64,000 nt of DNA from an uncultured Chitinophagales bacterium (GCA_964473555.1 CAYYPL010000003.1:191166-255165); one strand, 5' to 3'. Shown: positions 17,481-46,236, counted from the stretch's first letter. Translations and numbers: made by a program. Notes: generated by a model from the sequence alone, not told the origin.

Positions 17481-17571
17481 AGTACACAGTTCACAGTACA
17501 CAGTTCACAGTACACAGTACACAGTACACAGTTCACAGTTCACAGTACACAGTTCACAGTACATAGTACAC
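17481..17571. repeat. Tandem heptamer array (AGTWCAC)x13
   Basis: Direct reading gives agtacac agttcac agtacac agttcac agtacac x3 agttcac x2 agtacac agttcac agtacat agtacac. Confidence 0.95.
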
Positions 17572-17633
17572 ATATTGATGTACGCACAAAGCGCAGGAAA
17601 CGCAGAAAGTGCACGAGAACTTTGCTTAAATCA

Positions 17634-19117: not shown

Positions 19118-19356
19118 CGTCATGTTGAGTACAGCTTCGCTGTGGAGAGTGGTGCTTTGCTCCGGAGAGTTTTACTTCGCGGTGGGGCGTCTTCGACGCA
19201 GTTGGGCTGCACGGGAGGGAATGAATGGATAAAATCCGATTTTTAGGGAAGCTGCCCTTTCTGCACCCGTGCACTTCGTGCGCTATTTGGAATATATTGC
19301 TTGCCCGTTTTCCTGCTTGCCTGCTTTCCAGTTAGACCGCTGGTTTACTTATATAT

Positions 19357-19389: not shown

Positions 19390-19451
19390 TTTCTTCAGTT
19401 TTCTGTTTTCCGTGATCTCTTCTCAACAAAATCCTCAACAGTGGATTTTGG

Positions 19452-24251: not shown

Positions 24252-24405
24252 CGCGCTTGCATATCAAAATCCAGCAGCGGTAAACAGACAACAGTAAACT
24301 GTAAACAGCCATGCAGTTTATCTCATGCTCGTAGTGCATCAAATAACTCTTAAAACAATTTTGACTACTGTTTACTTGCCTGAATACTACTATAATCTGG
24401 CTGGG

Positions 24406-24506
24406 CCGTTTACAGTTTTCACTCGGCTTCGCCTCTTGATTTTCGTTCAAAGACTGCGTGGCTTTGCCACTTGTGTTTGAACTCCAATTCCGTTTTCACT
24501 TTACTG
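24406..24506 (+). repeat. About 100-nt structured intergenic repeat element, copy A
   Basis: About 85-90 percent identical by eye to 37121-37221 (reverse complement) and 41206-41300. The shared core is TTCGTTCAAAGACTGCGTGGCTTTGCCACTTGTGTTTGAACTCCAATTC. Confidence 0.9.
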
Positions 24507-26127: not shown

Positions 26128-26565
26128 ATGATCAAAGCTGAAATCGAACTCAAAGACGGCGTTTTAGGTATTGAACTTTTCGATGACGATGCACCGGGCA
26201 CAGTAGCCAATTTTGTAAAACTTGCGAAATCCGGATTCTACAACGGACTTAGCTTCCACAGAGTTATTCCGGATTTTGTGGTACAGGGTGGTTGTCCGGA
26301 AGGCTCTGGACGCGGTGGACCTGGATACACCATCAAGTGTGAACTCGATGGGGTAAAGCAATTTCACGATCGCGGAGTTTTGTCGATGGCACACGCTGGA
26401 CGCAACACAGGTGGGTCTCAGTTTTTTATCTGCCACAGTCGCAAAAACACGGCTCACCTCGACCGAAATCATACCGTGTTTGGGAAAGTAGTGGATCATG
26501 TCGATCTCATCGATGGGATTCGTCAGGGTGAGAAAATGATCGAAGTTCGTATTCTGGAATCATGA
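26128..26565 (+). CDS. ppiB: Cyclophilin-type peptidyl-prolyl cis-trans isomerase
   Basis: Motifs [28 protein letters not shown] and HTVFGKV. Confidence 0.9.
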
Positions 26566-27023
26566 TCCATTTTACGGAACAACGCCAGGAATTCCTTGAT
26601 GCACTCAACAGACTTTCCCCGGATACACTGCCGGCTTTTGGAATGATGACTCCGCAACATATGGTAGAACATCTTTCTCAGGCGATCAGTATTTCGAATG
26701 GGGATCGTACGATACGACTCATGGTCGACGAAGACCGTGCAGCCAAACAAAAACGCATCATGATCTACAGTGATCGTCCCTTTCCGATGGGAATGCAGGC
26801 TCCGGCTATGGAAGGGAAACTGGCGAAGTTACGGTTTGATAGTCTGGATGAGGCAAAAGAAGAGCTCATCAGACACATGAACAAGTTCGACACCTGGCAC
26901 CGGATCAATCCGGATGCCGGGTGTATACATCCATTTCTGGGTTTACTAAATCATCAGGAATGGGTGAAGTTTCATTCAAAACACATAACGCATCATTTTA
27001 AGCAATTTAATCTTGTGGCATAG
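26562..27023 (+). CDS. DUF1569/DinB-superfamily protein
   Basis: ATGA overlap with ppiB. The helical 153-aa protein ends in [12 protein letters not shown], typical of DUF1569-like proteins. The assignment is from memory only. Confidence 0.45.
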
Positions 27024-27039
27024 CCCACAAGATTAAATT
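27004..27039 (+). terminator. Perfect 15-bp hairpin enclosing the stop codon
   Basis: AATTTAATCTTGTGG-catagc-CCACAAGATTAAATT. The TAG stop (27021-27023) lies in the loop. Confidence 0.6.
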
Positions 27040-27352
27040 AGTAAACAGAAAAGAGTAACCTGTAAACAGCCCAACCGTGAACAGGAACAAGTCTTTAGTT
27101 TTTATTTTGCTTTGGTATACAGTTTCCGACCAAAGACTTCTTAGTTTCACCATTCATTACTAATCTTGGGCCGTTTACCGGTTACTGTTTTCTGTTTTCT
27201 GTTTTCTCACAGATATATTAAATCAACCAACTTTTTCGTTTAAAAACTACCCGTTAACAGGGCTCACAAGCAACTTGTATTGTAGCGAAGTTCGTCGGGG
27301 TTGTTTATTTTATCACATTAACATTCATTCACACGTTTAAGGTATTCCTCTT

Positions 27353-28450: not shown

Positions 28451-29209
28451 ATGACTACAGAAGACCATGTGTTAAAAGAATATCCCAACGCTATGGCCGG
28501 GAGTGATGTAACAGACAAGTATCTAGGCTTCCTGTCCGACGAGTTCAAATCAGATTTGAACAAGATGTTATTTGCTACCTCGGTCTGCTCAGACGACGTC
28601 AACGTCTCAACAGATTTTCGCAGGGTGCTCAAGCGACCATTTTCGATGGGTGGTCTGGGTGGACTTCCCTTTGCCGGATACACAGGCATGGTTGCATTTG
28701 CCCACCATATTCCAGATGGTGGGGATGGGTTCGTGTTCTATGGTCCACATATCGGCATAACCCGTGATGGTAGATTAGGCAGGATGATACGACAGGGACA
28801 GAGCCACGAAACAAACAGTTGTGGTGCACTTATGCTGGCTCTGGACAGAATGAAAAATGGGGGTCATAGCCCCTTGATCGACAACGATAAACTCGACATT
28901 GAACAAATCCATCTGGAAGAAGCCTTACTACCTTTCAAAGACCGTATTCTTGGGGCCGACAATCAGGCTAAAGAGGTCACCGAAGTAGCCATGGAAGTGA
29001 TCCATCGACGGATCAAGAAGTTATCAGGAATGGCAAAGAAAGAATTTCATTGTAAACGAATCTTCTGTCTTGGCGGTGTGATCATCAACACGGATCCAGG
29101 CGAACCAGATTACGTGGATGTACGCCACTTCTCGATGTATAATGTTGAAGACCTCGAGGAGATTTATCCGATATCATTGCTCGAATCAGAGGCGTTCAAA
29201 GCGTTGTAG
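28451..29209 (+). CDS. Hypothetical protein with Cys-x-Asp ... His ... Cys-Gly motif set (possible LCIB/LCIC-like beta-carbonic-anhydrase fold)
   Basis: The SVCSDDV, YGPHIGIT and ETNSCGAL motifs are spaced like a beta-CA-type zinc site. 252 aa, no signal peptide. Confidence 0.35.
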   Translation: MTTEDHVLKEYPNAMAGSDVTDKYLGFLSDEFKSDLNKMLFATSVCSDDVNVSTDFRRVLKRPFSMGGLGGLPFAGYTGMVAFAHHIPDGGDGFVFYGPHIGITRDGRLGRMIRQGQSHETNSCGALMLALDRMKNGGHSPLIDNDKLDIEQIHLEEALLPFKDRILGADNQAKEVTEVAMEVIHRRIKKLSGMAKKEFHCKRIFCLGGVIINTDPGEPDYVDVRHFSMYNVEDLEEIYPISLLESEAFKAL

Positions 29210-29212
29210 TTT

Positions 29213-29355
29213 TAGGGAAGTAGGGAGTAGGGAGTAGGGAGTGGGTAGTAGGTAGTAGGAAGTAGGTGGGAGTTGGTATTCTCACTCCCTACTCCCCACT
29301 CCCCACTACCCACTACCCACTCCCTACTCCCCACTCCCTACTCCCCACTCCCTAC
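29213..29355. repeat. Palindromic pair of heptamer arrays (TAGGGAG-type / CTCCCTA-type)
   Basis: The left arm (29213-29272) is built of tagggag/tgggtag/taggtag units. The right arm (29283-29355) is their complement (actccct actcccc actaccc ...). It sits between convergent genes and overlaps the last codons of the 29324 gene. Confidence 0.9.
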
Positions 29356-30385
29356 ACAATAAAAGCTGATTTCGGGCTCTGACCAGGTTTTGCTGCGGAT
29401 AGTCACACGAGAAATACACATTCCCATTCAGATGGTCGGTCAAAAATCGGATTCCCATGATCAAGGCCATGTATGGTCCGGAGAACGCAATCAATTCGCG
29501 CTCCTTTTCTGTAATCCATGAATCAGCTACCTCCATATATCCCTGTAAAAAAGTCTGTTCGTAGCTCGAATTCAGCTCCATTGCACCCAGATCGGGACTA
29601 TCCTCCGGTATATTCGGCACAAGTGTTCGCAGACAATCTCCAATATCAAAGTGAATGATCCCCGGCATTACGGTATCCAAATCTACCACGCATCGGGCAT
29701 TCCCATCCCTGTCGAACATCAGATTATTGAATTTGGAGTCGTTGTGTGTAATCCGAATAGGAATACTCCCTGATTTCATAGCCCGCTCAAGAGCAATCAA
29801 CGTGTGGTAATGTCCTTCAAGTTGTTCAAATATGGGAAACAATTCGTCTACACAGGCCTTTGGAGCCTGTTTCGCTTGATGGAGCTGTTGATACCGATGT
29901 TCGAGTGAATGAAAGTACGGAATGGTTACATGCAGTTGCCGTGGATCCAGGTCAGACAGTGCCTGAGTGAATGTCGCAAATGCTTTACCAGCCTCCAGTA
30001 CCATGTCCATGTTCAAAGGTGCATGATATCCTTTCAGATGGCTTTTGAAGCCATACACACGCCAGAATGCCCCGTCTTCTGAAACATACAAGTCACCCGA
30101 TTGAGATTTCCTCAATTCGAGGGTTTCGTAGGGACTACCACTAAATTCGTTTGCTAATTTTCGGTTTATCAGGTCAATATTGCTCATTAACCCATCTATG
30201 TTGCGAAATACATTCGTATTGATCTGCTGAAGCAGCCAATCCCCATCCGGGCCAGTTACCCGAAAAGAAGTATGAATGAGCCCGGTTTTTATTTCACAAA
30301 TGGTGATATCTGCAGGTTCAATACCGCCATTTGATGATTCGTAGTACTGCCGAAGTATCTTTTGCAGGTTCAAATCAGAATTCAT
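29324..30385 (-). CDS. APH/choline-kinase-fold sugar anomeric kinase (NahK/AmgK-like)
   Basis: Phosphotransferase-family catalytic segment ITHNDSKFNNLMF...VVDLDTV (Brenner-like HxDxxxxN and DxD). The ATG at 30385 gives an 11-nt overlap with the upstream gene. Confidence 0.6.
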   Translation of the reverse strand: MNSDLNLQKILRQYYESSNGGIEPADITICEIKTGLIHTSFRVTGPDGDWLLQQINTNVFRNIDGLMSNIDLINRKLANEFSGSPYETLELRKSQSGDLYVSEDGAFWRVYGFKSHLKGYHAPLNMDMVLEAGKAFATFTQALSDLDPRQLHVTIPYFHSLEHRYQQLHQAKQAPKACVDELFPIFEQLEGHYHTLIALERAMKSGSIPIRITHNDSKFNNLMFDRDGNARCVVDLDTVMPGIIHFDIGDCLRTLVPNIPEDSPDLGAMELNSSYEQTFLQGYMEVADSWITEKERELIAFSGPYMALIMGIRFLTDHLNGNVYFSCDYPQQNLVRARNQLLLCREWGVGSGE

Positions 30386-31265
30386 CCGGATAGACCCCGG
30401 CTGCGTGCAATTCACTTAAACGTGCATGAACCGCGGCGTTATCTTCGGGATAAGTGACACCAAACCACTCACTGTCTGTGGGGACGAGCGCCACTGGCTG
30501 GCTTCTGTCGATCATTGCAGATAAGACGTGCGCGAGATAAAATTCCGATGTGCTACCGGATTCGAGTTTGGCGTAAAACCTCGCAAATTCGTCATGAATC
30601 AGAGGAAACACCTGCGGACTGAATCCCATCAGGTTCATAGATACCAGATCATCGGGCTGAAGTTCACGTTCTATACCGCCTTCTTCAGCTACGATGATGG
30701 TTCCTTTCTTAAGGATGGATTTCATCTCCTGAATACTTTTAAGTCGGCCATTTCCATCCCCTTTACACACTCCGCGAGAAACCGTTCCGTGTTCGCTAAG
30801 TGTATTTTCAAGTTTGTAACCCACGATACAGGCTCCAGGCTTGGTTGCGTCCATCGAATTTAGATAGGTGAACGCATCGTGAATCCCATCGCGCCCATAA
30901 AAGTCATCTGCATTAACGATAGCGAATGCTTCCTGAACCTCCGATTCTGCCATCCACATGGCGTGGGCAGTCCCCCATGGTTTGGTTCTGCCTTCCAGGA
31001 CCTCATATCCGGCTGGAAGTGCGGAAAGTTCCTGATACACCACTCTGATATCTATCTTACCTTCCCAGGTTTTCATCACTGACTCACGAAAAGCGGGTTC
31101 GATCTGGCGACGAATCACACAAACCACCTTATCGAATCCAGCTTGAATGGCATCATACAATGTATAATCCAGTATCAGGCGCTGAAATGGTCCAAATGTG
31201 GCAAATTGTTTCGTCCCTCCATAGCGGCTGCCCATCCCGGCAGCTAAAATTACAAGTGATGGCAT
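30375..31265 (-). CDS. Sugar-1-phosphate nucleotidyltransferase
   Basis: N-terminal ILAAGMGSRYGGTKQ (GxGxRx(n)K) and KPWGTAHA motifs. Confidence 0.7.
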   Translation of the reverse strand: MPSLVILAAGMGSRYGGTKQFATFGPFQRLILDYTLYDAIQAGFDKVVCVIRRQIEPAFRESVMKTWEGKIDIRVVYQELSALPAGYEVLEGRTKPWGTAHAMWMAESEVQEAFAIVNADDFYGRDGIHDAFTYLNSMDATKPGACIVGYKLENTLSEHGTVSRGVCKGDGNGRLKSIQEMKSILKKGTIIVAEEGGIERELQPDDLVSMNLMGFSPQVFPLIHDEFARFYAKLESGSTSEFYLAHVLSAMIDRSQPVALVPTDSEWFGVTYPEDNAAVHARLSELHAAGVYPDEF

Positions 31266-31277
31266 ATATTGAGAAAA

Positions 31278-31364
31278 GGGATTAGGGATTAGGGATTAGA
31301 GTACACGGTTCACGGTACACGGTACACAGTACACAGTACACAGTACACAGTACACAGTACACAG
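31278..31364. repeat. Tandem heptamer arrays (GGGATTA)x3 followed by (GTACACR/GTTCACG)x9
   Basis: Direct reading. The GTWCACA unit family is the same as at 17481-17571. Confidence 0.95.
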
Positions 31365-35443: not shown

Positions 35444-36358
35444 TTAAGACCCTTCTGCCCTCTGCTTGCCCGCTAGCCTGCTTGCCCGCTCCACCGCTCC
35501 AACGCTTACCCGCTCATACAACCACACCCGAAACTCAGGCGTTGTGGGTGGAGAGTGTTTGGCACCTTTGAGTAGTTCGGACTGAAGATTGGTTATCTTG
35601 CCTTGAAGCCGGTCAATCAATGCCCCACCCGGAAACGAAATATCATGTTCGGCTGCAACCACCAGTACTGGCATGGTCAATCTGGACAATTCTTCGTCCG
35701 ACGCCAGTGGTGGGATTTTCATATTCGGATTGAAATCCAGAAATGAGTCCCCGATATAGTGCGACCAGTCATCGTCCCACGTTGTTACCAAATGCTCAAC
35801 CAACCCGCGTAGGTTTTTCTCACTCTGATTCATGCGGAATTTCATCATTGGCCAGGCCATTTTTGAGAAACCGCTTATCAAGGATCCCTGAACAATACCA
35901 GCTGGAACAATAAGAGTCAATGACTTCACACGCTCCGGATAATTCGAAGCAAATTGTCTGGACACAAATCCACCCAGACTCACTCCAAGTAAATCAAAAG
36001 AATGTAGTTTCAGCCCATCGACTACTTCGCGAAGCCACCGGGCGTGGGAATCATCCGTGTACGACAACCGAGCGGGAATCCCCTTCACCGATTGTCCCGG
36101 AATGTCAGGCGCGAGCAGGTAGTAATCCCGAGCCAAAAGACTCAGCTCCGATAACAAATGCGCCGAGCTCGTCAACATCGCATGAAGACACACTATCGGA
36201 GGCTTCGAAGGATCCCCAACTGCCAGCACATGACTGGATCCGAACGACGTTGTGACCTCAATAGACCTGGTTGGCGCATCTATTTTAACCCAAAACCGGT
36301 CATACCAACCCTGCAAACGAGTCTTTGCGGCTTCACTTTTAAAAACTGGAGTTCCCAT
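35444..36358 (-). CDS. Alpha/beta-fold hydrolase
   Basis: Nucleophile elbow LLGVSLGG and an HG-type oxyanion region (VCLHAM). The C-terminal roughly 20 codons are encoded by an octamer repeat array. Confidence 0.7.
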   Translation of the reverse strand: MGTPVFKSEAAKTRLQGWYDRFWVKIDAPTRSIEVTTSFGSSHVLAVGDPSKPPIVCLHAMLTSSAHLLSELSLLARDYYLLAPDIPGQSVKGIPARLSYTDDSHARWLREVVDGLKLHSFDLLGVSLGGFVSRQFASNYPERVKSLTLIVPAGIVQGSLISGFSKMAWPMMKFRMNQSEKNLRGLVEHLVTTWDDDWSHYIGDSFLDFNPNMKIPPLASDEELSRLTMPVLVVAAEHDISFPGGALIDRLQGKITNLQSELLKGAKHSPPTTPEFRVWLYERVSVGAVERASRLAGKQRAEGS

Positions 36359-37120: not shown

Positions 37121-37221
37121 GTAAACGGACTTGAGTAAACAGAATTGGATTACAAACACAAGTGGCAAAGCCACGCAGTCTTTGAATGAAAATCAAGAGG
37201 CGGAGCCGAGTGAAAACTGCC
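37121..37221 (-). repeat. About 100-nt structured intergenic repeat element, copy B (inverted)
   Basis: The reverse complement aligns with copy A: GCAGTTTTCACTCGGCTCCGCCTCTTGATTTTCATTCAAAGACTGCGTGGCTTTGCCACTTGTGTTTGTAATCCAATTC. Confidence 0.9.
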
Positions 37222-37421
37222 ATACTCTTCTTCCTTTGCCCTCTTTGACCCCTATTTCCTGCTCCACTGCTCCCCGCTCCACCGCTCTACTGTTCCACCG
37301 CTCCACCCACTACCACGAAAAAAGACTTGTATTGTTTATTCTATTCACAATTTTGCATACATATTCGTAATATGAATATGAAGCATGAATTCCTAACCTT
37401 AAGAACAACCCGCTCGCCCGA

Positions 37422-37790
37422 ATGTTGATCCGACTCAAATCTCTACTACTTTTATTCGCTTTCCTGGTCGGAGCCATTCAACCTATTGTTCCTTTGATTG
37501 AATACCATGTGTTCAAGGACGATATCATCGCATTTTTCTGTGTGAATCGAGATGACCCAAACTCGACATGCAACGGAGTCTGTTATCTGGCTAACCAAAT
37601 CGAACAGGCACAGGAAAAGCAGTCTGACACGTTCGACGGTCTCGGTTCTTACTACCCTATTTCAATCGCAGCTGAATCTGTTTCTCTGCCCCCATCACCT
37701 GCGTCTCTGCAGGACTACCCCACCTTGCCTCTGTCTGATCTGGCATGGAATTTCAAGCAGGTCGAAGTTCCACCACCCATATCGGCCTGA
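37422..37790 (+). CDS. Small membrane-anchored protein with C-x10-C-x3-C motif, unknown function
   Basis: One N-terminal hydrophobic helix, then FFCVNRDDPNSTCNGVCYLANQ. It is the first gene of a plus-strand cluster with the lipoprotein and TBDR. Confidence 0.5.
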   Translation: MLIRLKSLLLLFAFLVGAIQPIVPLIEYHVFKDDIIAFFCVNRDDPNSTCNGVCYLANQIEQAQEKQSDTFDGLGSYYPISIAAESVSLPPSPASLQDYPTLPLSDLAWNFKQVEVPPPISA

Positions 37791-37950
37791 TTATCTTAGC
37801 ATAGTCCCTATTCCTGACGAATCCCTGTAACCGCTTGCGTACCTACCTGTTTTTAAATAAGGTAGCATCCATACTTTTGGTAGTATCACAACCACTGGAC
37901 AAGCTCCTGATTCGTCCAACCTTTTATGTACTATTAATAATTTATTCTTT

Positions 37951-38745
37951 ATGAAACGTTTTATGTATTTCATGTCCCTCGCCGGACTCCTGTTTTTTGC
38001 ATCCTCCTGCACTACTAAAGATTCCAACGAAATCGAAATCCCAAATCTGATGAAAATCGGTGAGTTTACCGACGCCGGAATCACCGTGGTGGCCTATTCC
38101 GATCGCGAACTGGCTGTGGGACATAACCATCTGTATCTCGAAGTGCATCAAAATGGCACCCGATACGATAATGCTTCAATCCAGTTCACTACCATGATGT
38201 TTATGGAGTCGCACTCTCATGCATCTCCATTCGGACTCCCGGAACAGGTGCGTGAAAGAACCCACAATCTGTACAAGACCTGGGCCATTTTCACGATGCC
38301 ATCCGGAATGATGGGTCGGTGGGAACTTCAATTTACAGTCAAAAACGCCAACCAGTCTCAGACTATTGCCACCGGTGTCATCCCCATTCAGGTAGCACAA
38401 TCTACCCGTGTTTCCACGTTTATGGCAGAGAATGGCACCCGATATATCTTGACTTTGGTGAATCCGATGGAACCAAAAGTTGGACTAAACGACCTGGAAG
38501 TAGCCCTGCATCGAAGTGAATCGATGATGAGCTATCCAGCTGTCACCAACGCCGCTGTCGTGTTCGAGCCATGGATGCCTTCGATGGGACACGGATCAAG
38601 CAACAATGTCTCACCCTCCCATCAGGCTAACGGTTTCTATAAAGGAAAGGTCAATTTTAACATGACCGGTGACTGGGAACTGCGCTTCGATATGACCATC
38701 AATGGGATGACTATGTCTCGCAGGACGTTTGCCCTCGAATTTTAA
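37951..38745 (+). CDS. Lipoprotein with two YtkA/FixH-like modules carrying Met/His-rich motifs
   Basis: Lipobox FFASSC. There is an internal duplication, and each half ends in a MxGxWEL(Q/R)F motif (MMGRWELQFTV and MTGDWELRFDM) preceded by MMFMESHSHA or WMPSMGHGSS. Confidence 0.6.
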   Translation: MKRFMYFMSLAGLLFFASSCTTKDSNEIEIPNLMKIGEFTDAGITVVAYSDRELAVGHNHLYLEVHQNGTRYDNASIQFTTMMFMESHSHASPFGLPEQVRERTHNLYKTWAIFTMPSGMMGRWELQFTVKNANQSQTIATGVIPIQVAQSTRVSTFMAENGTRYILTLVNPMEPKVGLNDLEVALHRSESMMSYPAVTNAAVVFEPWMPSMGHGSSNNVSPSHQANGFYKGKVNFNMTGDWELRFDMTINGMTMSRRTFALEF

Positions 38746-38808
38746 TTCTCACATGTTGCCGGATACTCTGACCCCTCTGTATCCGGCAGCATTTTCGAAA
38801 GTTTTGTT

Positions 38809-41034
38809 ATGAATCGATCGATTTTAGTACTGACTATACTTTTTTTTATTTGTTTTAGTCCCGCTCTGGCATCGAGGATGCTGCACGGTGTTGTATTGGA
38901 TGCCAGTTCAGGAGCTCCGATCGAAGGGGTCCACGTCGCTATCGCTCAATCTCAGACAGGAACCATCACCAATGCGACCGGCGAGTTCATGCTGGCAATT
39001 CCATCTCAACACCTGATCCTTGTGTTTTCACACATCGGATACCAAAAGCGGGAGGTTTCGCTACATGACATTTCAGATCTTGATGAGCATATACAGATTT
39101 TACTGCAGCCAAAAAGTGTATCCTCCGATGAAGTCTTGATCACCGCAAATCGGACAAATACCGGATACAATGGCATCAATAATGACATTCGTACCAAGAC
39201 AGTGGACGATTACCTGGCCTCAACTGCCGGACTAGACCTTGTATCAAGAGCCAATATAGCCCGGGATCCCGTGGTAAGAGGTCTCCGCGACGGCCGTGTT
39301 GCCGTGATGGTCGATGGGATGCGCCTGACTCCAGCTTGCGTAGATGGCATGGATCCGGCTACAGCGTACATCGAAACGGACAATCTAAGGTCTATCGAGG
39401 TCAGCAAGGGATTCGATCCTGAGTCATCGATTGGAGCATCATCCGGAGCAGCGGTGAACTTTTCACTTTCACGTCCAGTGTTAAACAGCGGGTTGTCGAT
39501 TTCAGCCGAAACCGGATATCAGTCAGTCAGCGAACAAAAGGTGGTCCAGGGATCGATCTCCTACGGACAAGAAACCTTGGCATTTCGGGCTTCAGGTACT
39601 TTCCGCGATGCGTCCGATTACTCAGCTGGAAAGAATACGCGCATTTCGGGATCCGGATATCAAAAGAGTAACGTTCTCACATCTCTCGTCTACCATCCGA
39701 CCGAAAAACATCAGTTCAACCTTCGATACATTGGCGATTTTGCTGGAAAAATCGGATATCCAAACTTGATCATGGATACCCGCAACGCAACTGCACACAT
39801 TTTTGGGCTCGAACATGCATGGATTAATCCATTCCCTGCTGTAGCAAGTATCACCTCTAATGTGTACATCAACACGGTCAATCACCTGATGGATGATTAC
39901 GATCGCGACGTCACAGCTCGGACTGTCATGCCAAACATGTACATGCCTATGGATGGAGAAACCGTTACTGCCGGACTAACAAGCAAAGCTATTCTATTAC
40001 ATGGCAATCACTTCGCGACCATTCAGCTGGAGGCATACCAACTTGATGCATTCGCTGATATGCTCATGGAACACCTCAGTCCGGATATCAACGACATGTA
40101 TCTCATCAACCTGGGAGATGTAACCCAACAACATCTTGGATTGACCACCTCGTATCGATACGTTACTGAAAATGGATATCAACTAGGTGGAAGTTTAACT
40201 CTGCGAGGTGAGAATAATCTGCTTCGCGAAACCAGTGCCCGGGCAACCTATCAAGCTGAATATCCAGACTTAGATACGCTGGAACCACTCGGACTAGCCT
40301 ACACTACAGGTGTATCGGTGGAAAAAGAGCTTCATAAATGGTTAAGAAGTGGGGTATCTTTCAGTCACGGAACCCGGCTTGCAGACCACATGGAGCGTTA
40401 CGGATACTATATTTATCAGCCTCTTGATGGATTTTTCTACTTCGGAAATCCGAGCTTGAGACCCGAGCGTAGCACAAAATTTGAAATCAACACACAGTTT
40501 GGAGCTGCAAACACTACTATCTCAGGAAATGCCTCTTTTTGGGTGAATCGTCTCGATAACTATATAGCTGGATTACGTCAGGATGCGCTGTTCAAGCGGT
40601 ATCAGAACATGGGCTCGGCCACGTTATCCGGATTCGAAATCGAATTGGCTGCGAACCTGCCTCCTCACTGGAAAGCAGGTTCTGTTGTTTCTTATGTACA
40701 TGGCAATCATAACGAACTGAACGAACCATTACCGATGATTCCACCTTTTAAAGGAACCGTATACCTGCAACGACAGTCTGAGTCGATACAACTTGAAGGT
40801 CGACTTCGATGGGCAGCCGCTCAAAATCGAATTGCCTCACAAAATAGCCTTGAAACTACCACAGGCGGGCACATTTTGATCGACTTTTTCGCTCAAAAAC
40901 GCCTAGGGAACATGTTTTCATTGCAGATAGGCGTAGAAAACATCATGGATACCTACTACATCGATCATCTGAGCGTTAACTCGATTCCATCTACAGGAAG
41001 AAATATTCAACTTTCGCTGAGGTTGAAATTGTAA
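38809..41034 (+). CDS. TonB-dependent receptor with CarbopepD_reg N-domain, substrate unknown (metal suspected)
   Basis: N-terminal LHGVVLDASSGAPIEGVHVAI, a plug segment VMVDGMRLTPACVDGMDPATAYIE, 741 aa. Confidence 0.8.
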   Translation: MNRSILVLTILFFICFSPALASRMLHGVVLDASSGAPIEGVHVAIAQSQTGTITNATGEFMLAIPSQHLILVFSHIGYQKREVSLHDISDLDEHIQILLQPKSVSSDEVLITANRTNTGYNGINNDIRTKTVDDYLASTAGLDLVSRANIARDPVVRGLRDGRVAVMVDGMRLTPACVDGMDPATAYIETDNLRSIEVSKGFDPESSIGASSGAAVNFSLSRPVLNSGLSISAETGYQSVSEQKVVQGSISYGQETLAFRASGTFRDASDYSAGKNTRISGSGYQKSNVLTSLVYHPTEKHQFNLRYIGDFAGKIGYPNLIMDTRNATAHIFGLEHAWINPFPAVASITSNVYINTVNHLMDDYDRDVTARTVMPNMYMPMDGETVTAGLTSKAILLHGNHFATIQLEAYQLDAFADMLMEHLSPDINDMYLINLGDVTQQHLGLTTSYRYVTENGYQLGGSLTLRGENNLLRETSARATYQAEYPDLDTLEPLGLAYTTGVSVEKELHKWLRSGVSFSHGTRLADHMERYGYYIYQPLDGFFYFGNPSLRPERSTKFEINTQFGAANTTISGNASFWVNRLDNYIAGLRQDALFKRYQNMGSATLSGFEIELAANLPPHWKAGSVVSYVHGNHNELNEPLPMIPPFKGTVYLQRQSESIQLEGRLRWAAAQNRIASQNSLETTTGGHILIDFFAQKRLGNMFSLQIGVENIMDTYYIDHLSVNSIPSTGRNIQLSLRLKL

Positions 41035-41205
41035 ATAATAGCCAAGCAGGCAAGAGGGCAAGAGGACAAGAGGACAAGCAATTTCGCATTTTCTCAAAAT
41101 AAACCGCACTCCTGCCCCGAGCTATTACCCCGTTCTCACTCGTCTGTACCTCATGATGTACAACCAAAGCCGACATGGATTCACCACACAAGTTTGGTCT
41201 TGTAT

Positions 41206-41300
41206 GGCTGTTTTGACACGGCTTCTCCTCTTTATTTTCGTTCAAAGTCTGCGTGGCTTTGCCACTTGTGTTTGAACTCCAATTCAGTTTTCCGTTTACA
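41206..41300 (+). repeat. About 100-nt structured intergenic repeat element, copy C
   Basis: GGCTGTTTTGACACGGCTTCTCCTCTTTATTTTCGTTCAAAGTCTGCGTGGCTTTGCCACTTGTGTTTGAACTCCAATTCAGTTTTCCGTTTACA aligns with copies A and B. Confidence 0.9.
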
Positions 41301-41330
41301 CTTGAAATTGGGTCAAAACCCAATTTCAAG
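41301..41330 (-). terminator. Perfect 13-bp hairpin enclosing the TBDR stop codon
   Basis: CTTGAAATTGGGT-caaa-ACCCAATTTCAAG. On the minus strand the 5-prime arm encodes the last residues LEIGF, and the TGA stop spans the stem/loop junction. Confidence 0.6.
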
Positions 41331-43763
41331 TCTTAGTAAAAAATGCCTCCCGGCCTGCGGATAGTAAAAATTGAACCGATACTCTTCCCCGCCCCAGTAC
41401 CACGCGTAGGTGTATCCGTTGGTTTCATAAGCAGTATCAAGTACGTTGAAAACCTGCAGAGACAAACTGGCGTTGCGCAGACTGGCTATCCCGCCGAGGT
41501 CGTAGCTGAATTCCAGATCATGGATCAAGTACGGATCAATGGACCGGCTTTCAAGTCCGGAGTTGTCCAAATACTGCCGACTGACTCCCTTGGTAATGAG
41601 TCCGGCCTGAAACCTTCCTCTTTCATAATTGAAGGTGCTGGATCCCACCATTTCGGGCGATAACGCAATCGGAGTGTCCTCATACACGATTTCACGCTGA
41701 GCCCCCGTGTCGAAATCATCCACAAACTCTACGAATTCCGGAATCCGGTGCCGACTCAGGGTCAAATTCCCACCCCACTGCCACGAATCACTCAATCGCA
41801 ATCCGCCTTCGAGCTCAATCCCAACCCGATAACTGTCTTTCACGTTGGTGCGGATCGCCGCTCCTACGTCGTTCAACTGTCCGGTGAGAATCAGTTGATT
41901 GTCATAGTTCATCCAGAAGAAATTGGATCCGACATACCATCCGGACCGATCGATACGATATCCGGCTTCAAGGTCATACAACGTTTCGTGACTGGGGCGG
42001 GACTCGGGCGTCGATTGCGTGTACTCCCGACGCACCGGTTCTTTGTTGCCCACACTGTACGAAATATAGGCACGCTGACCGTTTCCGGAGCGATAAACCA
42101 GTCCAGCCTTCGGATTGAAAAAGGTCAGGTCGACGGACTGGTCAACACTGTTCTGATTCCTGTCGAAGCCCAGAAATGTGTATCCAACTCGTCGCACCTG
42201 AACGTCGCCAAACGCGCTCAGTCGCTCAGAAAGGTCATAATTGAGCTTGGTATACGCGTTTAAATCCGTTTTGAATCCATTATTATCGTAATACCGGTCT
42301 CCGATGCTCAACTGTGGAGCATTTCGGGCCCAAATCACCTCTCCGAAGTGGTCTCCATCGTATTCGTTGTATCCACCTCCGGCTGTAAGTGTCCATTTTT
42401 CGGCCTGATACTCGGTCGAAACCACCATCCCGTAAAAGTGATTGTCCAGCCAACGGCGCCGAACCAGATCACTTCGTGGCGATCCCTGAACAATGGTATA
42501 GGTCGAAAGCCGATCGTCTTCACGGAATTCTTCGAAGTATCCCGCCCCACGTGTGTAATGCAGCGCCGAATTCAGATACCAGTTGTCCTGAAGCCGGTAG
42601 GAATAGTGCAGCTGATAATGAGTCTGCGAATACTGATCAACCTGATCTTCATAAGTGAACATATTATACCGGCGGGGATCGCTATTCAGCAAACGCTGGG
42701 TCTCAGCCTCGGACAATCCATGATTCTCGGCGTAGTACAACATTCCCTCGCGGTCGTTTCTAAGACGCGCCTCCGGGATACCGTTCCAGGCCTGATAAGT
42801 ACGCTCACTGCCCGAAAACACATTAATCTTGAGCAAGTCCCGGGATCCGTATCTGGACGCCGACACAAACCAGGAACTCAAGTCGGATGTCGCCCGATCA
42901 ATGAATCCATCACTTTGTATTGAAGAAAGTCTACCTTCAATAGCCCACTGATTTGGAAGGAGTCCGGTTCCAACCTGGAGTGTATTTCGGAAGGTATTAA
43001 AACTGCCATAGGTCGATGAAACCCGTGCATAGGGATCCGTTTCAAGGGCGCCAGTCTGCAGATTTAGTGTTGCTCCAAACGCTGCCGGACCATTGGTCGA
43101 AGTACCGACTCCACGCTGTATCTGCATGTTTCCTACAGATGATGCGAAGTCAGGTAGGTTGACCCAGAACACGCCATGCGACTCGGAGTCGTTGAGTGGA
43201 ATCCCATTAATCGTAACATTGATTCGGGTATCGTCGACACCACGGATACGCAGTCCGGTGTATCCGATTCCAGCTCCGGCGTCGGATGTACTCACCACAG
43301 ATGGCGTCTGAAGCAGCAAAAACGGGATATCCTTACCCGAATTCTGTTTTTCGATGTCGTCGCGGGTCACGTTCGAATACGTAACCGGAGTTCTGTCGTC
43401 GACTCGATGTCCCATGACAAAGATTTCGTCCGAAATCACCGTTTCTGGCAATAGAAGCACCGAAATACTCGAAGCATCACTCTTGCGGACAGTAATCGAC
43501 TCGGATTTATACCCCAAAAACGACACTTCAAGTGTTATTGACCCACGATCCCATGCCGTAGCAGGTGGGGTATAGGTAAATCGCCCATCGAGTCCCGTCC
43601 TAGCGCCGAAATCTGTTCCAGAAATCCGTACTGCGGCACCTGGCAGCGGATCCCGGGTAGTTGCATCACGCACCACTCCAGAAACTGACTGTGCAGAAAT
43701 GATATCTGGCAGTAACAATACCACCAGCAATGTAGTTGAAAGAAGAAATTTAAGTTTAAGCAT
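41313..43763 (-). CDS. TonB-dependent receptor, thiamine/thiamine-precursor uptake inferred from the TPP riboswitch
   Basis: CarbopepD_reg N-domain (VSGVVRDATTRDPLPGAAVRISG), plug and barrel, terminal Phe. The start is moved to the ATG at 43763 (MLKLKFLLSTTLLVVLL signal), because the longer ORF would run into the riboswitch expression platform. Confidence 0.85.
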   Translation of the reverse strand: MLKLKFLLSTTLLVVLLLPDIISAQSVSGVVRDATTRDPLPGAAVRISGTDFGARTGLDGRFTYTPPATAWDRGSITLEVSFLGYKSESITVRKSDASSISVLLLPETVISDEIFVMGHRVDDRTPVTYSNVTRDDIEKQNSGKDIPFLLLQTPSVVSTSDAGAGIGYTGLRIRGVDDTRINVTINGIPLNDSESHGVFWVNLPDFASSVGNMQIQRGVGTSTNGPAAFGATLNLQTGALETDPYARVSSTYGSFNTFRNTLQVGTGLLPNQWAIEGRLSSIQSDGFIDRATSDLSSWFVSASRYGSRDLLKINVFSGSERTYQAWNGIPEARLRNDREGMLYYAENHGLSEAETQRLLNSDPRRYNMFTYEDQVDQYSQTHYQLHYSYRLQDNWYLNSALHYTRGAGYFEEFREDDRLSTYTIVQGSPRSDLVRRRWLDNHFYGMVVSTEYQAEKWTLTAGGGYNEYDGDHFGEVIWARNAPQLSIGDRYYDNNGFKTDLNAYTKLNYDLSERLSAFGDVQVRRVGYTFLGFDRNQNSVDQSVDLTFFNPKAGLVYRSGNGQRAYISYSVGNKEPVRREYTQSTPESRPSHETLYDLEAGYRIDRSGWYVGSNFFWMNYDNQLILTGQLNDVGAAIRTNVKDSYRVGIELEGGLRLSDSWQWGGNLTLSRHRIPEFVEFVDDFDTGAQREIVYEDTPIALSPEMVGSSTFNYERGRFQAGLITKGVSRQYLDNSGLESRSIDPYLIHDLEFSYDLGGIASLRNASLSLQVFNVLDTAYETNGYTYAWYWGGEEYRFNFYYPQAGRHFLLRLEIGF

Positions 43764-43842
43764 AATTCCCTGTATGATGTTGTGTTCATCAGGGATGCTG
43801 CGTGAATGGCTATACAATTGAGACCGTGCGACTAAATGTCGA

Positions 43843-43938
43843 ACAGTACCGGTTTCCCTTCGCCGGCATTACCCGGATCAGGTGTTTGGGGTTTGATCTC
43901 AGCCCGCTTCGCAAGCACCCCCAACCTTGGTTTGTCAA
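43843..43938 (-). promoter_or_regulatory. TPP (THI-box) riboswitch
   Basis: The minus strand reads GGGGTGCTTGCGAAGCGGGCTGAGATCAAACCCCAAACACCTGATCCGGGTAATGCCGGCGAAGGGAAACC. This matches the conserved GGGGUGC, CUGAGA, ACCUGAUC.GG.UAAU.CC.GCG.AGGGA blocks of the TPP aptamer and lies about 80 nt upstream of the TBDR start. Confidence 0.9.
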
Positions 43939-44202
43939 AGATTGGAAAGACGAATGGTACTACTTTTTTAGCAGATTGTAAAGACGCGAGCCGGGAGCGG
44001 CGAGCGGCGAGCCATATCTTTTCACGTTTTCTCTTGCGTCAGCAACTTTCTCGTGCGTCAGCAAATTGCTCTTGGCGAAGCCAACTTTCACACGCGCAAG
44101 TGTCTTTCTACTGCACACCGCTCGCTGCTCGCCGCTTACCCAATCTGAAATTAAAATCGTATCTTTGTCCTGTAAGTTAATCCCAATTAAAACCATACCC
44201 GT

Positions 44203-45998: not shown

Positions 45999-46130
45999 TT
46001 CCTTTGTTTACGACAAGACCTACCAGCGAATAACGTCAACACGATTTAGGCATCTTCAGAGATTCTCTTTTCTCTTATCTGTTTTCGCTTGTCTATTTTT
46101 TTGATTTTCAGAATGAAAAGCAAAAAAATA

Positions 46131-46229
46131 GGGGTAAGCGACTCCTATCGCACCGCTACAACCTCTTACCGTTGCTACCTTCCGGTCCTGGCGGAGTTCA
46201 GAGGGAGCTGGTCGTAAGAGACTTACCCC
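46131..46229 (-). ncRNA. ffs: Signal recognition particle RNA (small bacterial SRP / 4.5S RNA)
   Basis: The minus strand reads GGGGTAAGTCTCTTACGACCAGCTCCCTCTGAACTCCGCCAGGACCGGAAGGTAGCAACGGTAAGAGGTTGTAGCGGTGCGATAGGAGTCGCTTACCCC followed by TATTTTTTT. It has the terminal pairing GGGGTAAG/CTTACCCC and the conserved domain-IV motif CAGGnCCGGAAGGnAGCA. Confidence 0.85.
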
Positions 46230-46236
46230 TAGAAGC

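What the first reader, a model, noticed from the sequence alone, without database searches (positions are those of the whole stretch)
24406..24506. Approximately 100-nt structured element present three times in the window (24406-24506 plus, 37121-37221 minus, 41206-41300 plus)
The three copies align over about 85 nt with only scattered substitutions. The consensus is CAGTTTTCACTCGGCTYCGCCTCTTGATTTTCRTTCAAAGACTGCGTGGCTTTGCCACTTGTGTTTGAACTCCAATTC. The core can fold as TTCAAA..AC..GTGGC-TTT-GCCAC..GT..TTTGAA. The contexts differ: between co-directional genes (ggt/rsmF), in a divergent region (antitoxin / Cys-motif gene), and in a convergent region (two TBDRs). This argues against a gene-specific cis-regulator and for a REP/MITE-like dispersed element or a multicopy small RNA. 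All copies are bordered by GTAAACAG/CTGTTTAC-type short repeats. I do not recognise it as a named RNA family. It is the most likely undescribed feature here.
Basis: seen in the sequence. Interest (0 to 1): 0.7.

Follow-up and report, generated by a model that had tools for sequence, protein, structure and literature searches.

The report
Small hairpin repeat scattered between genes
A 77-base hairpin-forming DNA unit is scattered between genes in an uncultured Chitinophagales genus, is present or absent at the same site in close relatives, and is a new but fairly ordinary example of the small interspersed repeats (REP/MITE-like) known from many bacteria.

Summary
Three copies that are 86-93% identical lie at 24413-24497 (+), 37135-37219 (-) and 41208-41292 (+). 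A fourth, diverged copy (41130-41207) sits in tandem before the third. A possible decayed relic lies at 27096-27178.

The organism is an uncultured Chitinophagales bacterium. Related genomes lack the element at two of the sites (clean "empty sites"). A further site holds 0, 1 or 2 copies, depending on the strain.

Nine distinct copies align without gaps. They keep a small 5' stem-loop and a 38-nt imperfect hairpin through compensatory changes (10 of 20 pairs; 0 of 500 shuffles reach this). There are no terminal inverted repeats. Each unit instead starts with a heptamer-like box, CNGTTTTCAC, and is followed by the same box. Empty sites keep one box, and the units sit inside heptanucleotide arrays.

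No match was found in Rfam, plasmids, phages, viral contigs or species-representative genomes. A small-peptide reading was tested and rejected.

Best reading: a non-coding, REP-like dispersed repeat. It is gained, lost and duplicated by recombination or slippage at its heptamer boxes, or possibly by a single-strand HUH transposase. It is a new member of a known kind, of moderate interest.

The parts
24413..24500 (+). Copy 1: a 77-nt unit plus the repeated terminal box. It lies between the ggt stop (24251) and the RsmF start (24512).
   Evidence: CM 111.9 bits. Absent from the orthologous site of L003, where the flanks are conserved. Logan contigs L001 and L002 break at window position 24475, inside this copy.
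24415..24423 (+). Left terminal box GTTTTCACT of copy 1. The identical 9-mer recurs at 24492-24500 (spacing 77).
   Evidence: the repeat finder family D2. The empty site in L003 keeps a single CCGTTTTCACT.
24419..24439 (+). 5' small stem-loop of copy 1: TCA(CTC)GGC(TTC)GCC(TCT)TGA.
   Evidence: Helices 1 and 2 of the consensus. Primary sequence is highly conserved in all copies.
24445..24482 (+). Main imperfect hairpin of copy 1: GTTCAAAgACtgcGTGGCtttGCCACttGTgTTTGAAC.
   Evidence: Inverted repeat I1 and inner stem 24458-24470. Helices 3 and 4 have 9 of 14 pairs with changes on both sides across copies.
37132..37219 (-). Copy 2. It lies in the divergent region between the Phd antitoxin gene (start 36959, minus strand) and ORF 37422-37790 (+).
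   Evidence: CM 104.3 bits. The Logan contig L087 starts at window position 37157, inside this copy.
41130..41207 (+). Diverged copy ('div'), directly upstream of copy 3 and in tandem with it (period 78).
   Evidence: nhmmer E = 0.005 and CM 61.9 bits. 53-56% identical to copies 1-3. Absent, together with copy 3, from L083, L084 and L085.
41208..41299 (+). Copy 3 plus the trailing heptamer-like units AGTTTTC CGTTTAC. It lies in the convergent region between two TonB-dependent receptor genes.
   Evidence: CM 102.7 bits. Absent from relatives. L087 ends at window position 41278, inside this copy.
27096..27178 (+). Possible decayed relic of a unit, followed by (CTGTTTT)3 at 27185-27207.
   Evidence: CM R2 with filters off gives 9.3 bits and E = 0.026 over 501 nt, which is weak. 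It shares CGACCAAAGACT and GTTTCACCA with the L097 copy. It is conserved in L003.
24280..24308 (-). Heptamer array (CTGTTTA/CAGTTTA on the minus strand) upstream of copy 1. It is the same unit family as the element's terminal boxes.
   Evidence: TRF: period 7, 4.1 copies; regex scan.

Best explanation
This is a non-coding, REP-like interspersed repeat specific to one genus of uncultured Chitinophagales.

Anatomy. One unit is 77-78 nt and has four parts:
- a heptamer-like box, CNGTTTTCAC;
- a small stem-loop whose sequence is conserved;
- a 38-nt imperfect hairpin whose pairing, rather than its sequence, is conserved;
- a short tail (CCAATTC or TTGTATGG).
The unit is always followed by another CNGTTTWC box, or by a short array of such heptamers.

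Shown:
- Units occur singly or as tandem pairs in intergenic regions, in either orientation relative to the neighbouring genes.
- They are present or absent at orthologous sites in closely related genomes.
- Empty sites retain one copy of the box.
- The hairpin is maintained by compensatory substitutions.

Inferred:
- The same 8-11-nt box bounds each unit, and similar heptamer arrays fill the intergenic regions of these genomes. Units are therefore probably deleted precisely and duplicated in tandem by slippage between boxes. They are probably seeded at new loci by ectopic recombination or template switching between heptamer arrays.
- The hairpin is kept either because the folded strand promotes or is required for this copying, or because it serves the host as a transcript-end or stability signal.
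For: Multicopy status:
- Copies 1-3 are 86-93% identical.
- Short-read contigs from two samples break inside the copies.

Insertion polymorphism:
- Copy 1 is absent from L003, with flanks conserved to the base.
- Copy 3 and 'div' are absent from L083, L084 and L085.
- The flavin-reductase/methyltransferase spacer holds different numbers of copies: 0 in L091; 1 in L092, L093, L094, L095 and L097; 2 in L089. The methyltransferases are 95-100% identical to the L088 (= L094) query.

Structure:
- Nine distinct copies align without gaps.
- 86.7% of cells are paired.
- 10 of 20 pairs have changes on both sides.
- 0 of 500 shuffles reach this, and slid controls give 0-3 such pairs.
- In copy L089b the inner stem is completely rewritten, from GUGGC/GCCAC to GCACC/GGUGC.

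Boxes and boundaries:
- Exact 9-nt and 11-nt direct repeats lie at both ends, spaced 77 nt apart. There are no terminal inverted repeats.
- Empty sites keep one box: CCGTTTTCAC in L003 and CTGTTTTTAC in L091.
- The left boundary differs between copies. Copy 1 joins inside a CAGTTT heptamer. Copies 2 and 3 carry GTATGG, the tail of a preceding unit, as in 'div', L095 and L089a. This fits recombination better than a fixed transposase cut.
- Tandem pairs exist: 'div' with copy 3, and L089a with L089b.

Not a known family or mobile element. No transposase was found among about 40 ORFs of the window.
Against: - Only 9 distinct copies from 5 loci could be collected, so copy number per genome is extrapolated.
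- Much of the covariation comes from a few lineages. The ACCAAA/TTTGGT state is shared by five copies ('div', L088, L097, L095, L089a) and may be a single event. Five compensatory pairs come from L089b alone.
- Thermodynamic support is modest (z from -2.2 to +0.7). The three most diverged copies no longer fold to the consensus.
- The recombination and slippage mechanism is inferred from junction anatomy, not observed.
- At the copy 3 site, the empty allele of the relatives has no recognisable box.
- No expression data exist, so an RNA function is not excluded.
Confidence: 0.5

Rival explanations
1. It is a REP/PATE-type element mobilised in trans by a single-strand-specific HUH (Y1) transposase. 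Candidates are the Bacteroidetes RAYT subclass 2.6 or an IS200/IS605 TnpA. The enzyme would recognise the hairpins on ssDNA and insert the unit next to a short target (..TTCAC or TTTAC) without making a target duplication.
For: - There are no terminal inverted repeats. The unit has two internal stem-loops, one near each end, conserved by covariation.
- The empty site equals the left flank, plus one box ending in TT(C/T)AC, plus the right flank. That is what 3'-of-target insertion and precise excision would give.
- Every right boundary ends in TTCAC or TTTAC.
- Bacteroidetes RAYT-like genes (subclass 2.6) are reported to be flanked by atypical hairpins that recur in the genome (PMC6006769).
Against: - No Y1 transposase was seen in the window.
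- None appears in the gene lists of the fetched genus loci.
- The left boundary is not fixed: copy 1 differs from copies 2 and 3.
- The conserved box is 8-11 nt, much longer than the 4-5-nt targets of known family members.
- There is no GTAG or CGTC tag.
- Complete genomes could not be searched.
Confidence: 0.22
2. It is a functional RNA element. It could be a multicopy small RNA, or a transcript-end stabiliser or terminator module. Its conserved 5' segment would act as a seed or protein-binding site, and its 3' hairpin plus U-rich tail would define or protect a 3' end.
For: - The architecture looks like an sRNA: conserved sequence at the 5' end, then a hairpin conserved by covariation, then a U-rich tail (UUCCAAUUCCGUUUUC).
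- The inner stem plus TTGTGTTTGA is flagged as terminator-like.
- Copies 1 and 3 lie downstream of co-oriented genes.
Against: - No sequence upstream of the unit is conserved between copies, so the element carries no promoter of its own.
- Orientation relative to neighbours is inconsistent. At the flavin-reductase/methyltransferase site, the site shared by the most genomes, the unit is antisense to both genes.
- The strand cannot be decided from wobble pairs: 3 G-U on this strand against 7 on the other.
- There is no Rfam match.
- The element is dispensable at orthologous sites.
Confidence: 0.2
3. It is a small protein gene encoding a peptide of about 23 aa, (M)AVFTRLRLLIFVQRLRGFATCV. This could be, for example, a hydrophobic type-I-toxin-like or leader peptide present in several copies.
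For: - The sense frame has no stop across the first 21 codons in all 9 copies. Differences lean towards third codon positions (11/12/24 in five copies; 16/20/30 in nine).
- Copies 2 and 3 have an ATG at the right place.
Against: - An ATG is present only in copies 2 and 3. The stop codon is TGA in copies 1 and 3, but TGT, TGG or CTT elsewhere.
- pN/pS is 0.76 in this frame, against 0.68-1.32 in the other five frames, so there is no purifying selection on the peptide.
- The stem rewrite in L089b changes the peptide but keeps the pairing.
- No called protein in a 5.8-billion-protein collection matches either strand's translation.
Confidence: 0.03
4. It is an assembly artefact or a chance similarity.
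For: The source is a metagenome-assembled genome, where repeats can be mis-joined.
Against: - Independent assemblies from other samples (ENA ERZ869909, ERZ869933 and ERZ795077; JGI 3300048834 and 3300075147; NCBI GCA_964550435.1) carry related copies in proper gene context.
- The copies differ from each other by substitutions.
- 0 matches are expected by chance.
Confidence: 0.01

Closest known systems
REP/BIME elements and REPINs, with their RAYT (TnpA-REP) transposases. This includes the 'atypical secondary structures' next to Bacteroidetes RAYT subclass 2.6 (PMC3733652; PMC6006769).
   Same: - Short, non-coding, intergenic and multicopy.
- Defined by a hairpin kept through compensatory changes.
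- No terminal inverted repeats.
- Occur singly or in pairs, and are species- or genus-specific.
- Present or absent between relatives.
   Different: - The unit is longer (77 nt, against 20-40 nt) and has two stem-loops.
- There is no GTAG or CGTC tag at the hairpin foot.
- Pairs are in direct (tandem) orientation, not inverted.
- The unit is bounded by an 8-11-nt direct box shared with heptamer arrays.
- No RAYT gene was found in the sequence available.
MITEs such as Correia/NEMIS (Neisseria), RUP (Streptococcus pneumoniae) and ERIC/RU-1 (enterobacteria)
   Same: - About 100 nt, intergenic and dispersed.
- Fold into a hairpin.
- Show insertion polymorphism between strains.
- Can carry fortuitous ORFs (PMC2759123).
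   Different: MITEs are defined by terminal inverted repeats and a short target-site duplication made by a DDE transposase. Here the ends are direct, not inverted. The flanking repeat is the same sequence at independent sites.
MIRUs (mycobacterial interspersed repetitive units; from my own knowledge of Supply et al. 1997)
   Same: - Unit length is similar (MIRUs are about 46-101 bp).
- Intergenic.
- Occur as single or tandem units with copy-number variation.
- Contain an open frame.
   Different: MIRU ORFs overlap the stop and start codons of flanking genes and are co-oriented with them. Here neither holds: copy 1 ends 15 nt before the RsmF ATG, and the copy at the L088 site is antisense to both neighbours. 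MIRUs are not defined by a covarying hairpin.
Intergenic heptanucleotide arrays (LSSR/STRR; TAACTGA repeats in Beggiatoaceae, cyanobacteria and a few Bacteroidetes; PMC4679880)
   Same: The element is embedded in such arrays, and its terminal boxes are array-like (CNGTTTW). Both are intergenic and vary between strains.
   Different: The element is a unique 70-nt structured core, not a simple-sequence array. The neighbouring heptamer units differ in sequence from site to site.

Membership tests
Rfam RNA families (any) | Score at or above the family's gathering threshold against a covariance model | tested here: not met
   The gathering scan of the window finds only SRP and TPP elsewhere. E-value mode on copies 1, 3 and 'div' gives only noise of at most 14 bits.
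MITE (non-autonomous DDE transposon) | Terminal inverted repeats | tested here: not met
   The repeat finder with seed 6 on three copies finds only the internal hairpin and no terminal inverted arms.
MITE (non-autonomous DDE transposon) | Target-site duplication of fixed length whose sequence differs from site to site | tested here: not met
   The direct repeats are 9 nt (copy 1) and 11 nt (L092) of the same box, GTTTTCAC, at independent sites. They are degenerate in copies 2 and 3.
Canonical REP (GTAG/CGTC superfamilies) | A 20-40-bp palindrome with an unpaired GTAG or CGTC tag at one end (PMC3733652) | tested here: not met
   The consensus reads ..CAAAGACTGC-GTGGC..GCCAC-TTGTG.., with no GTAG or CGTC at the foot on either strand. 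The unit is 77 nt.
Canonical REP (GTAG/CGTC superfamilies) | An associated RAYT/TnpA-REP gene flanked by the same hairpins | not testable with these tools
   None lies in the 64-kb window or in the fetched genus loci.
IS200/IS605-derived PATE | Subterminal hairpins at both ends, insertion 3' of a fixed 4-5-nt target, and no target duplication | tested here: inconclusive
   Two stem-loops are present, and the empty sites fit 3'-of-target insertion. However, the left boundary differs between copies, and the conserved box is 8-11 nt.
Dispersed structured repeat (generic REP-like class) | Multicopy, intergenic, polymorphic between relatives, with a hairpin conserved by covariation | tested here: met
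MIRU-like minisatellite | An ORF overlapping the stop and start codons of flanking, co-oriented genes | tested here: not met
   Copy 1 ends 15 nt before the RsmF ATG. The unit at the L088 site is antisense to both neighbours. pN/pS is about 0.76.
Integron attC site | Inverse core RYYYAAC and core GTTRRRY at the two ends, next to cassette ORFs and an integrase | tested here: not met
   By direct reading of the alignment, neither motif is present at the ends. No integrase lies in the window.
Small protein gene | Conserved start and stop codons and purifying selection in one frame | tested here: not met

The most novel reading that the evidence does not exclude
The element and the heptanucleotide arrays are two faces of one system. 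A structured 70-nt core would be specifically targeted to CNGTTTW heptamer arrays, or would seed and organise them. It would move through a single-stranded, hairpin-dependent mechanism not yet described for Bacteroidota. This could be a dedicated HUH or other enzyme with an unusually long 8-11-nt target, or a hairpin-induced template-switch mechanism. That would offer a mechanistic handle on why some bacterial lineages fill their intergenic regions with heptamer arrays.
Probability: 0.15. Interest if true: 0.65.

Novelty: new member of a known kind. Interest (0 to 1): 0.35.

Why it matters
Small interspersed repeats shape bacterial intergenic regions. They break assemblies, as they did here in two short-read data sets. 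They can change promoters, transcript ends and mRNA stability, and they are useful strain markers.

This family is the first I can document for this uncultured Chitinophagales genus. It is unusual in being bounded by direct heptamer-like boxes and embedded in heptanucleotide arrays, a poorly understood feature of some Bacteroidota and cyanobacteria. If the link to the arrays is mechanistic, it would make the origin and turnover of those arrays testable.

Otherwise it is a routine addition to the catalogue of REP-like repeats. Its practical use would be a covariance model for masking and annotating these MAGs.

Tried and rejected
1. Exact-pattern scans with the core (hairpin left free) over species-representative genomes and JGI metagenomes gave 0 hits. 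The family is therefore narrow. A degenerate pattern built from positions invariant in the four window copies then found one metagenome contig, L088.

2. Small-peptide hypothesis. It was prompted by an apparent third-position bias and by the in-frame tandem copy. It was rejected because start and stop codons are inconsistent and pN/pS (0.76) is no better than in other frames. The codon-phase bias also stops being significant with nine copies.

3. Known RNA family: rejected.

4. Plasmid, phage or viral origin: no match.

5. Further or more distant copies: none beyond this genus. This used nhmmer, a six-frame peptide HMM, and two covariance models over 1.3-1.44 Mb of fetched Bacteroidota loci.

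6. Terminator role: the inner stem plus T-rich tail is flagged, but orientation fits in only two of five sites.

7. Deciding the functional strand from wobble pairs: inconclusive.

8. Walking along the source contig: not possible. One edge protein was not on record, and only short Logan contigs were returned.

9. An empty-site test for copy 2: the one relative with upstream sequence (L084) has a different neighbouring gene, so there is no orthologous spacer to compare.

Full report
**1. The observation**

- Read directly, they share an 85-nt block.
- The repeat finder reports 91% (copy 1 against copy 3), 94% (copy 1 against copy 2) and 88% (copy 2 against copy 3) identity.
- The 34-nt core occurs three times with at most one mismatch, against none in 100 shuffles.
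- My boundaries are 24413-24497 (+), 37135-37219 (-) and 41208-41292 (+).

- Copy 1 lies between the gamma-glutamyltranspeptidase gene and RsmF, which are co-directional.
- Copy 2 lies in a divergent region next to a Phd/ParE pair.
- Copy 3 lies in a convergent region between two TonB-dependent receptor genes.

A profile search added a fourth, diverged copy directly upstream of copy 3 and in tandem with it: 41130-41207, period 78, nhmmer E = 0.005, 61.9 bits with the covariance model. A weak, probably decayed relic lies at 27096-27178 (9.3 bits).

**2. Organism and distribution**

The window comes from an uncultured Chitinophagales bacterium. The best species-representative relative of its RsmF (88% amino-acid identity) is MAG CAZJZI01.

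The core pattern, with the hairpin left free, has no exact match in 185,579 representative genomes or in the JGI metagenome contigs. Nothing related is found in Rfam at either threshold. Nothing related is found in PLSDB plasmids, GenBank phages or IMG/VR contigs.

I then built a degenerate pattern from the positions invariant in the four window copies. It found one metagenome contig, L088, with a copy 88% identical to copy 1.

Using the methyltransferase gene next to that copy as a handle, I fetched the same locus from six further assemblies of the genus.
- L092 and L093 carry the same copy as L088 (L094 is L088 itself).
- L097 has one copy. It belongs to the same MAG as L003.
- L095 has one copy.
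- L089 has two diverged copies.
- L091 has none. It comes from the same sequencing run as contigs identical to the window.

Two covariance models run over 1.36 and 1.44 Mb of fetched Bacteroidota loci found no copy outside this genus.

**3. Evidence that units are gained and lost**

- Copy 1. In L003 the flanks of copy 1 are conserved to the base, but the unit is missing. L003 reads GGGCCGTTTACAGTTTACAGTTTAC-CGTTTTCAC-TTTACTGATTTTATG. The window reads GGGCCGTTTA-CAGTTTTCAC[TCGGC...CCAATTC]CGTTTTCAC-TTTACTGATTTTATG.
- Copy 3. Three relatives with 82-89% identical receptor genes lack both 'div' and copy 3.
- The flavin-reductase/methyltransferase spacer. The number of units varies from 0 to 2, although the methyltransferases are 95-100% identical to the L088 query.
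- Assembly breaks. Short-read (Logan) contigs carrying proteins identical to the window's end inside copy 1 (window position 24475). Another spans exactly from inside copy 2 to inside copy 3 (37157-41278). This is the behaviour expected of a repeat present in many copies.

**4. Anatomy**

All nine distinct copies align without a single gap (A8). In order, a unit has:
- a box CNGTTTTCAC;
- a small stem-loop, TCA(CTC)GGC(TTC)GCC(TCW)TGA, whose sequence is almost invariant;
- a 38-nt imperfect hairpin;
- a tail, either CCAATTC or TTGTATGG.

There are no terminal inverted repeats. Instead the first 9-11 nt recur exactly 77 nt downstream: GTTTTCACT in copy 1 and TCCGTTTTCAC in L092. In the other copies the unit is followed by one to three CNGTTTWC heptamers.

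Empty sites keep one such box: CCGTTTTCAC in L003 and CTGTTTTTAC in L091.

The left boundary is not fixed. Copy 1 joins inside a pre-existing CAGTTT heptamer. Copies 2 and 3 both carry GTATGG before the unit. That motif is the tail of a preceding unit, as seen in 'div', L095 and L089a.

The units sit in genomes whose intergenic regions are filled with 7-8-nt tandem arrays. This phenomenon has been described for a few Bacteroidetes and cyanobacteria (PMC4679880). Arrays of the CNGTTTW type also exist without a unit, for example at 27185-27207 and 19396-19410.

**5. Structure**

Counted on the nine ungapped copies:
- 86.7% of cells are standard pairs (shuffles 77.0 ± 1.4);
- 10 of 20 pairs have a change on both sides (shuffles 3.4 ± 1.2; 0 of 500 reach 10);
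- sliding the partners by 1-3 columns leaves 0-3 such pairs and 33-49% pairing.

The clearest cases of compensatory change are these.
- The outer stem is TTCAAA/TTTGAA in copies 1-3 and ACCAAA/TTTGGT in five other copies.
- The inner stem is GUGGC/GCCAC in most copies, GUGGU/ACCAC in L095 and L097, and fully rewritten as GCACC/GGUGC in L089b.

Caveats:
- The sample is small, and some states are shared by descent.
- Single-sequence stability is modest (z from -2.2 to +0.7).
- The three most diverged copies no longer fold to the consensus.
- The strand that folds cannot be decided. There are three G-U cells on this strand, against seven A-C cells that would be G-U on the other.

**6. The coding idea, tested and rejected**

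The sense frame reads (M)AVFTRLRLLIFVQRLRGFATCV. The diverged tandem copy is in the same frame with several synonymous differences, so I tested a small-peptide gene.

It fails on several counts.
- An ATG is present only in copies 2 and 3.
- The stop codon is TGA, TGT, TGG or CTT, depending on the copy.
- pN/pS is 0.76, against 0.68-1.32 in the other five frames.
- With nine copies the codon-phase counts are 16/20/30, which is not significant.
- The stem rewrite in L089b changes four residues while keeping the pairing.
- A search of 5.8 billion proteins with both strands' translations found nothing.

**7. Mechanism**

Shown:
- The element is a multicopy, non-coding unit.
- It is gained and lost at intergenic sites within one genus.
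- Its hairpin is under selection.

Inferred and preferred (0.5):
- Identical 8-11-nt boxes bound each unit, and similar heptamer arrays are everywhere in these genomes.
- Slippage or unequal exchange between boxes would delete units precisely. This would explain the empty sites that retain one box.
- The same process would duplicate units in tandem, as in 'div' with copy 3 and L089a with L089b.
- Ectopic recombination or template switching between arrays would seed new loci. This would explain the ragged left boundary.

Main rival (0.22): mobilisation by a single-strand HUH (Y1) transposase.
- This fits the absence of inverted repeats, the two stem-loops (one near each end of the unit), and the geometry of the empty sites.
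- It also fits the report that Bacteroidetes RAYT subclass 2.6 genes are flanked by atypical hairpins that recur in the genome (PMC6006769).
- Against it, no such gene is present in the window or in the fetched loci. The box is also much longer than known targets.

Second rival (0.2): an RNA role, as an sRNA or a transcript-end module.
- It remains possible, because the layout resembles a seed followed by a terminator hairpin.
- Against it, no promoter travels with the unit, and its orientation relative to genes is inconsistent.

**8. Comparison with what is known, and verdict**

The element works like a REP-type repeat. It does not pass the membership tests for several defined families.
- Canonical REPs: there is no GTAG or CGTC tag, and the unit is 77 nt rather than 20-40 nt (PMC3733652).
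- MITEs: there are no terminal inverted repeats and no variable target duplication.
- MIRUs, integron attC sites, and any Rfam family.

I file it as a new member of the generic class of dispersed structured repeats. Its distinguishing twist is the direct heptamer-like boxes and the embedding in heptanucleotide arrays.

Interest is moderate (0.35). A specialist would not be surprised by a lineage-specific REP-like family. The possible mechanistic link to heptamer arrays is the part worth following.

Noticed in passing
window 17481-17572, 19298-19329, 24280-24308, 27185-27207, 29213-29352, 31277-31364, 35486-35506, 37261-37307, 41051-41078, 43986-44012, 46063-46099; also L088 1915-1990 and L091 4960-5200: Almost every intergenic region carries tandem arrays of 7-8-nt units (for example AGTACAC x13 and GCTCCACC x6). 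The unit sequence differs from site to site, and the arrays differ between close relatives. The phenomenon is reported for a few Bacteroidetes and cyanobacteria (PMC4679880), but it is very dense here.
   Followed up: partly
window 29215-29266 and 29295-29346: Two heptamer arrays in opposite orientation, (GGGAGTA)n and (TACTCCC)n, form 52-nt inverted arms that are 88% complementary. They lie between the ends of two convergent genes (28451-29209 on + and 29324-30415 on -). This is a potential long hairpin or bidirectional terminator built from simple repeats (I3-I8).
   Followed up: no
window 24280-24310 and 27041-27071: A 31-nt motif, GTAAACAGAnAAnAGTAAnCTGTAAACAGCC, 90% alike at the two places. 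At each place it lies about 20-30 nt after a stop codon (ggt; ORF 26562-27023). Both are conserved in the related MAG L003.
   Followed up: no
window 27024-27352, especially 27215-27310: This intergenic region is 88% identical to L003, while the flanking coding regions are only 77-83% identical. The conserved non-coding block may be a promoter/leader or a small RNA upstream of the M48 peptidase gene.
   Followed up: no
window 43838-43932 (-) and 46128-46235 (-): A TPP riboswitch lies directly upstream of the TonB-dependent receptor gene 41313-43817 (-), which suggests thiamine-regulated outer-membrane uptake. A Bacteroidales-type small SRP RNA is also present.
   Followed up: no
L091 4953-4967, L092 5646-5660, L095 8429-8443, L089 8562-8580, L097 9784-9800: A small hairpin, GCGCAC-N3/4-GTGCGC, lies immediately after the flavin reductase stop codon. 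It is conserved across the genus with compensatory changes (GCACTCCGTGC, GCGCACAAAGTGCG, GCGCACATAGTGCGC).
   Followed up: no
L095 8560-8700 and L089 8690-8720 (minus strand as printed): A second short repeated motif, CCTGCAC(A/C)(A/C/T)GTCTT(T)AAAG, recurs next to the element copies. L095 appears to keep the flanks of the L089b unit while lacking its core. That would be another presence/absence event.
   Followed up: partly
L001/L002 3' ends (window 24475); L087 both ends (window 37157 and 41278): Public short-read (Logan) contigs of runs SRR14492199 and SRR14492200 end exactly inside the element copies. This is a practical sign that the repeat fragments assemblies of this organism.
   Followed up: yes
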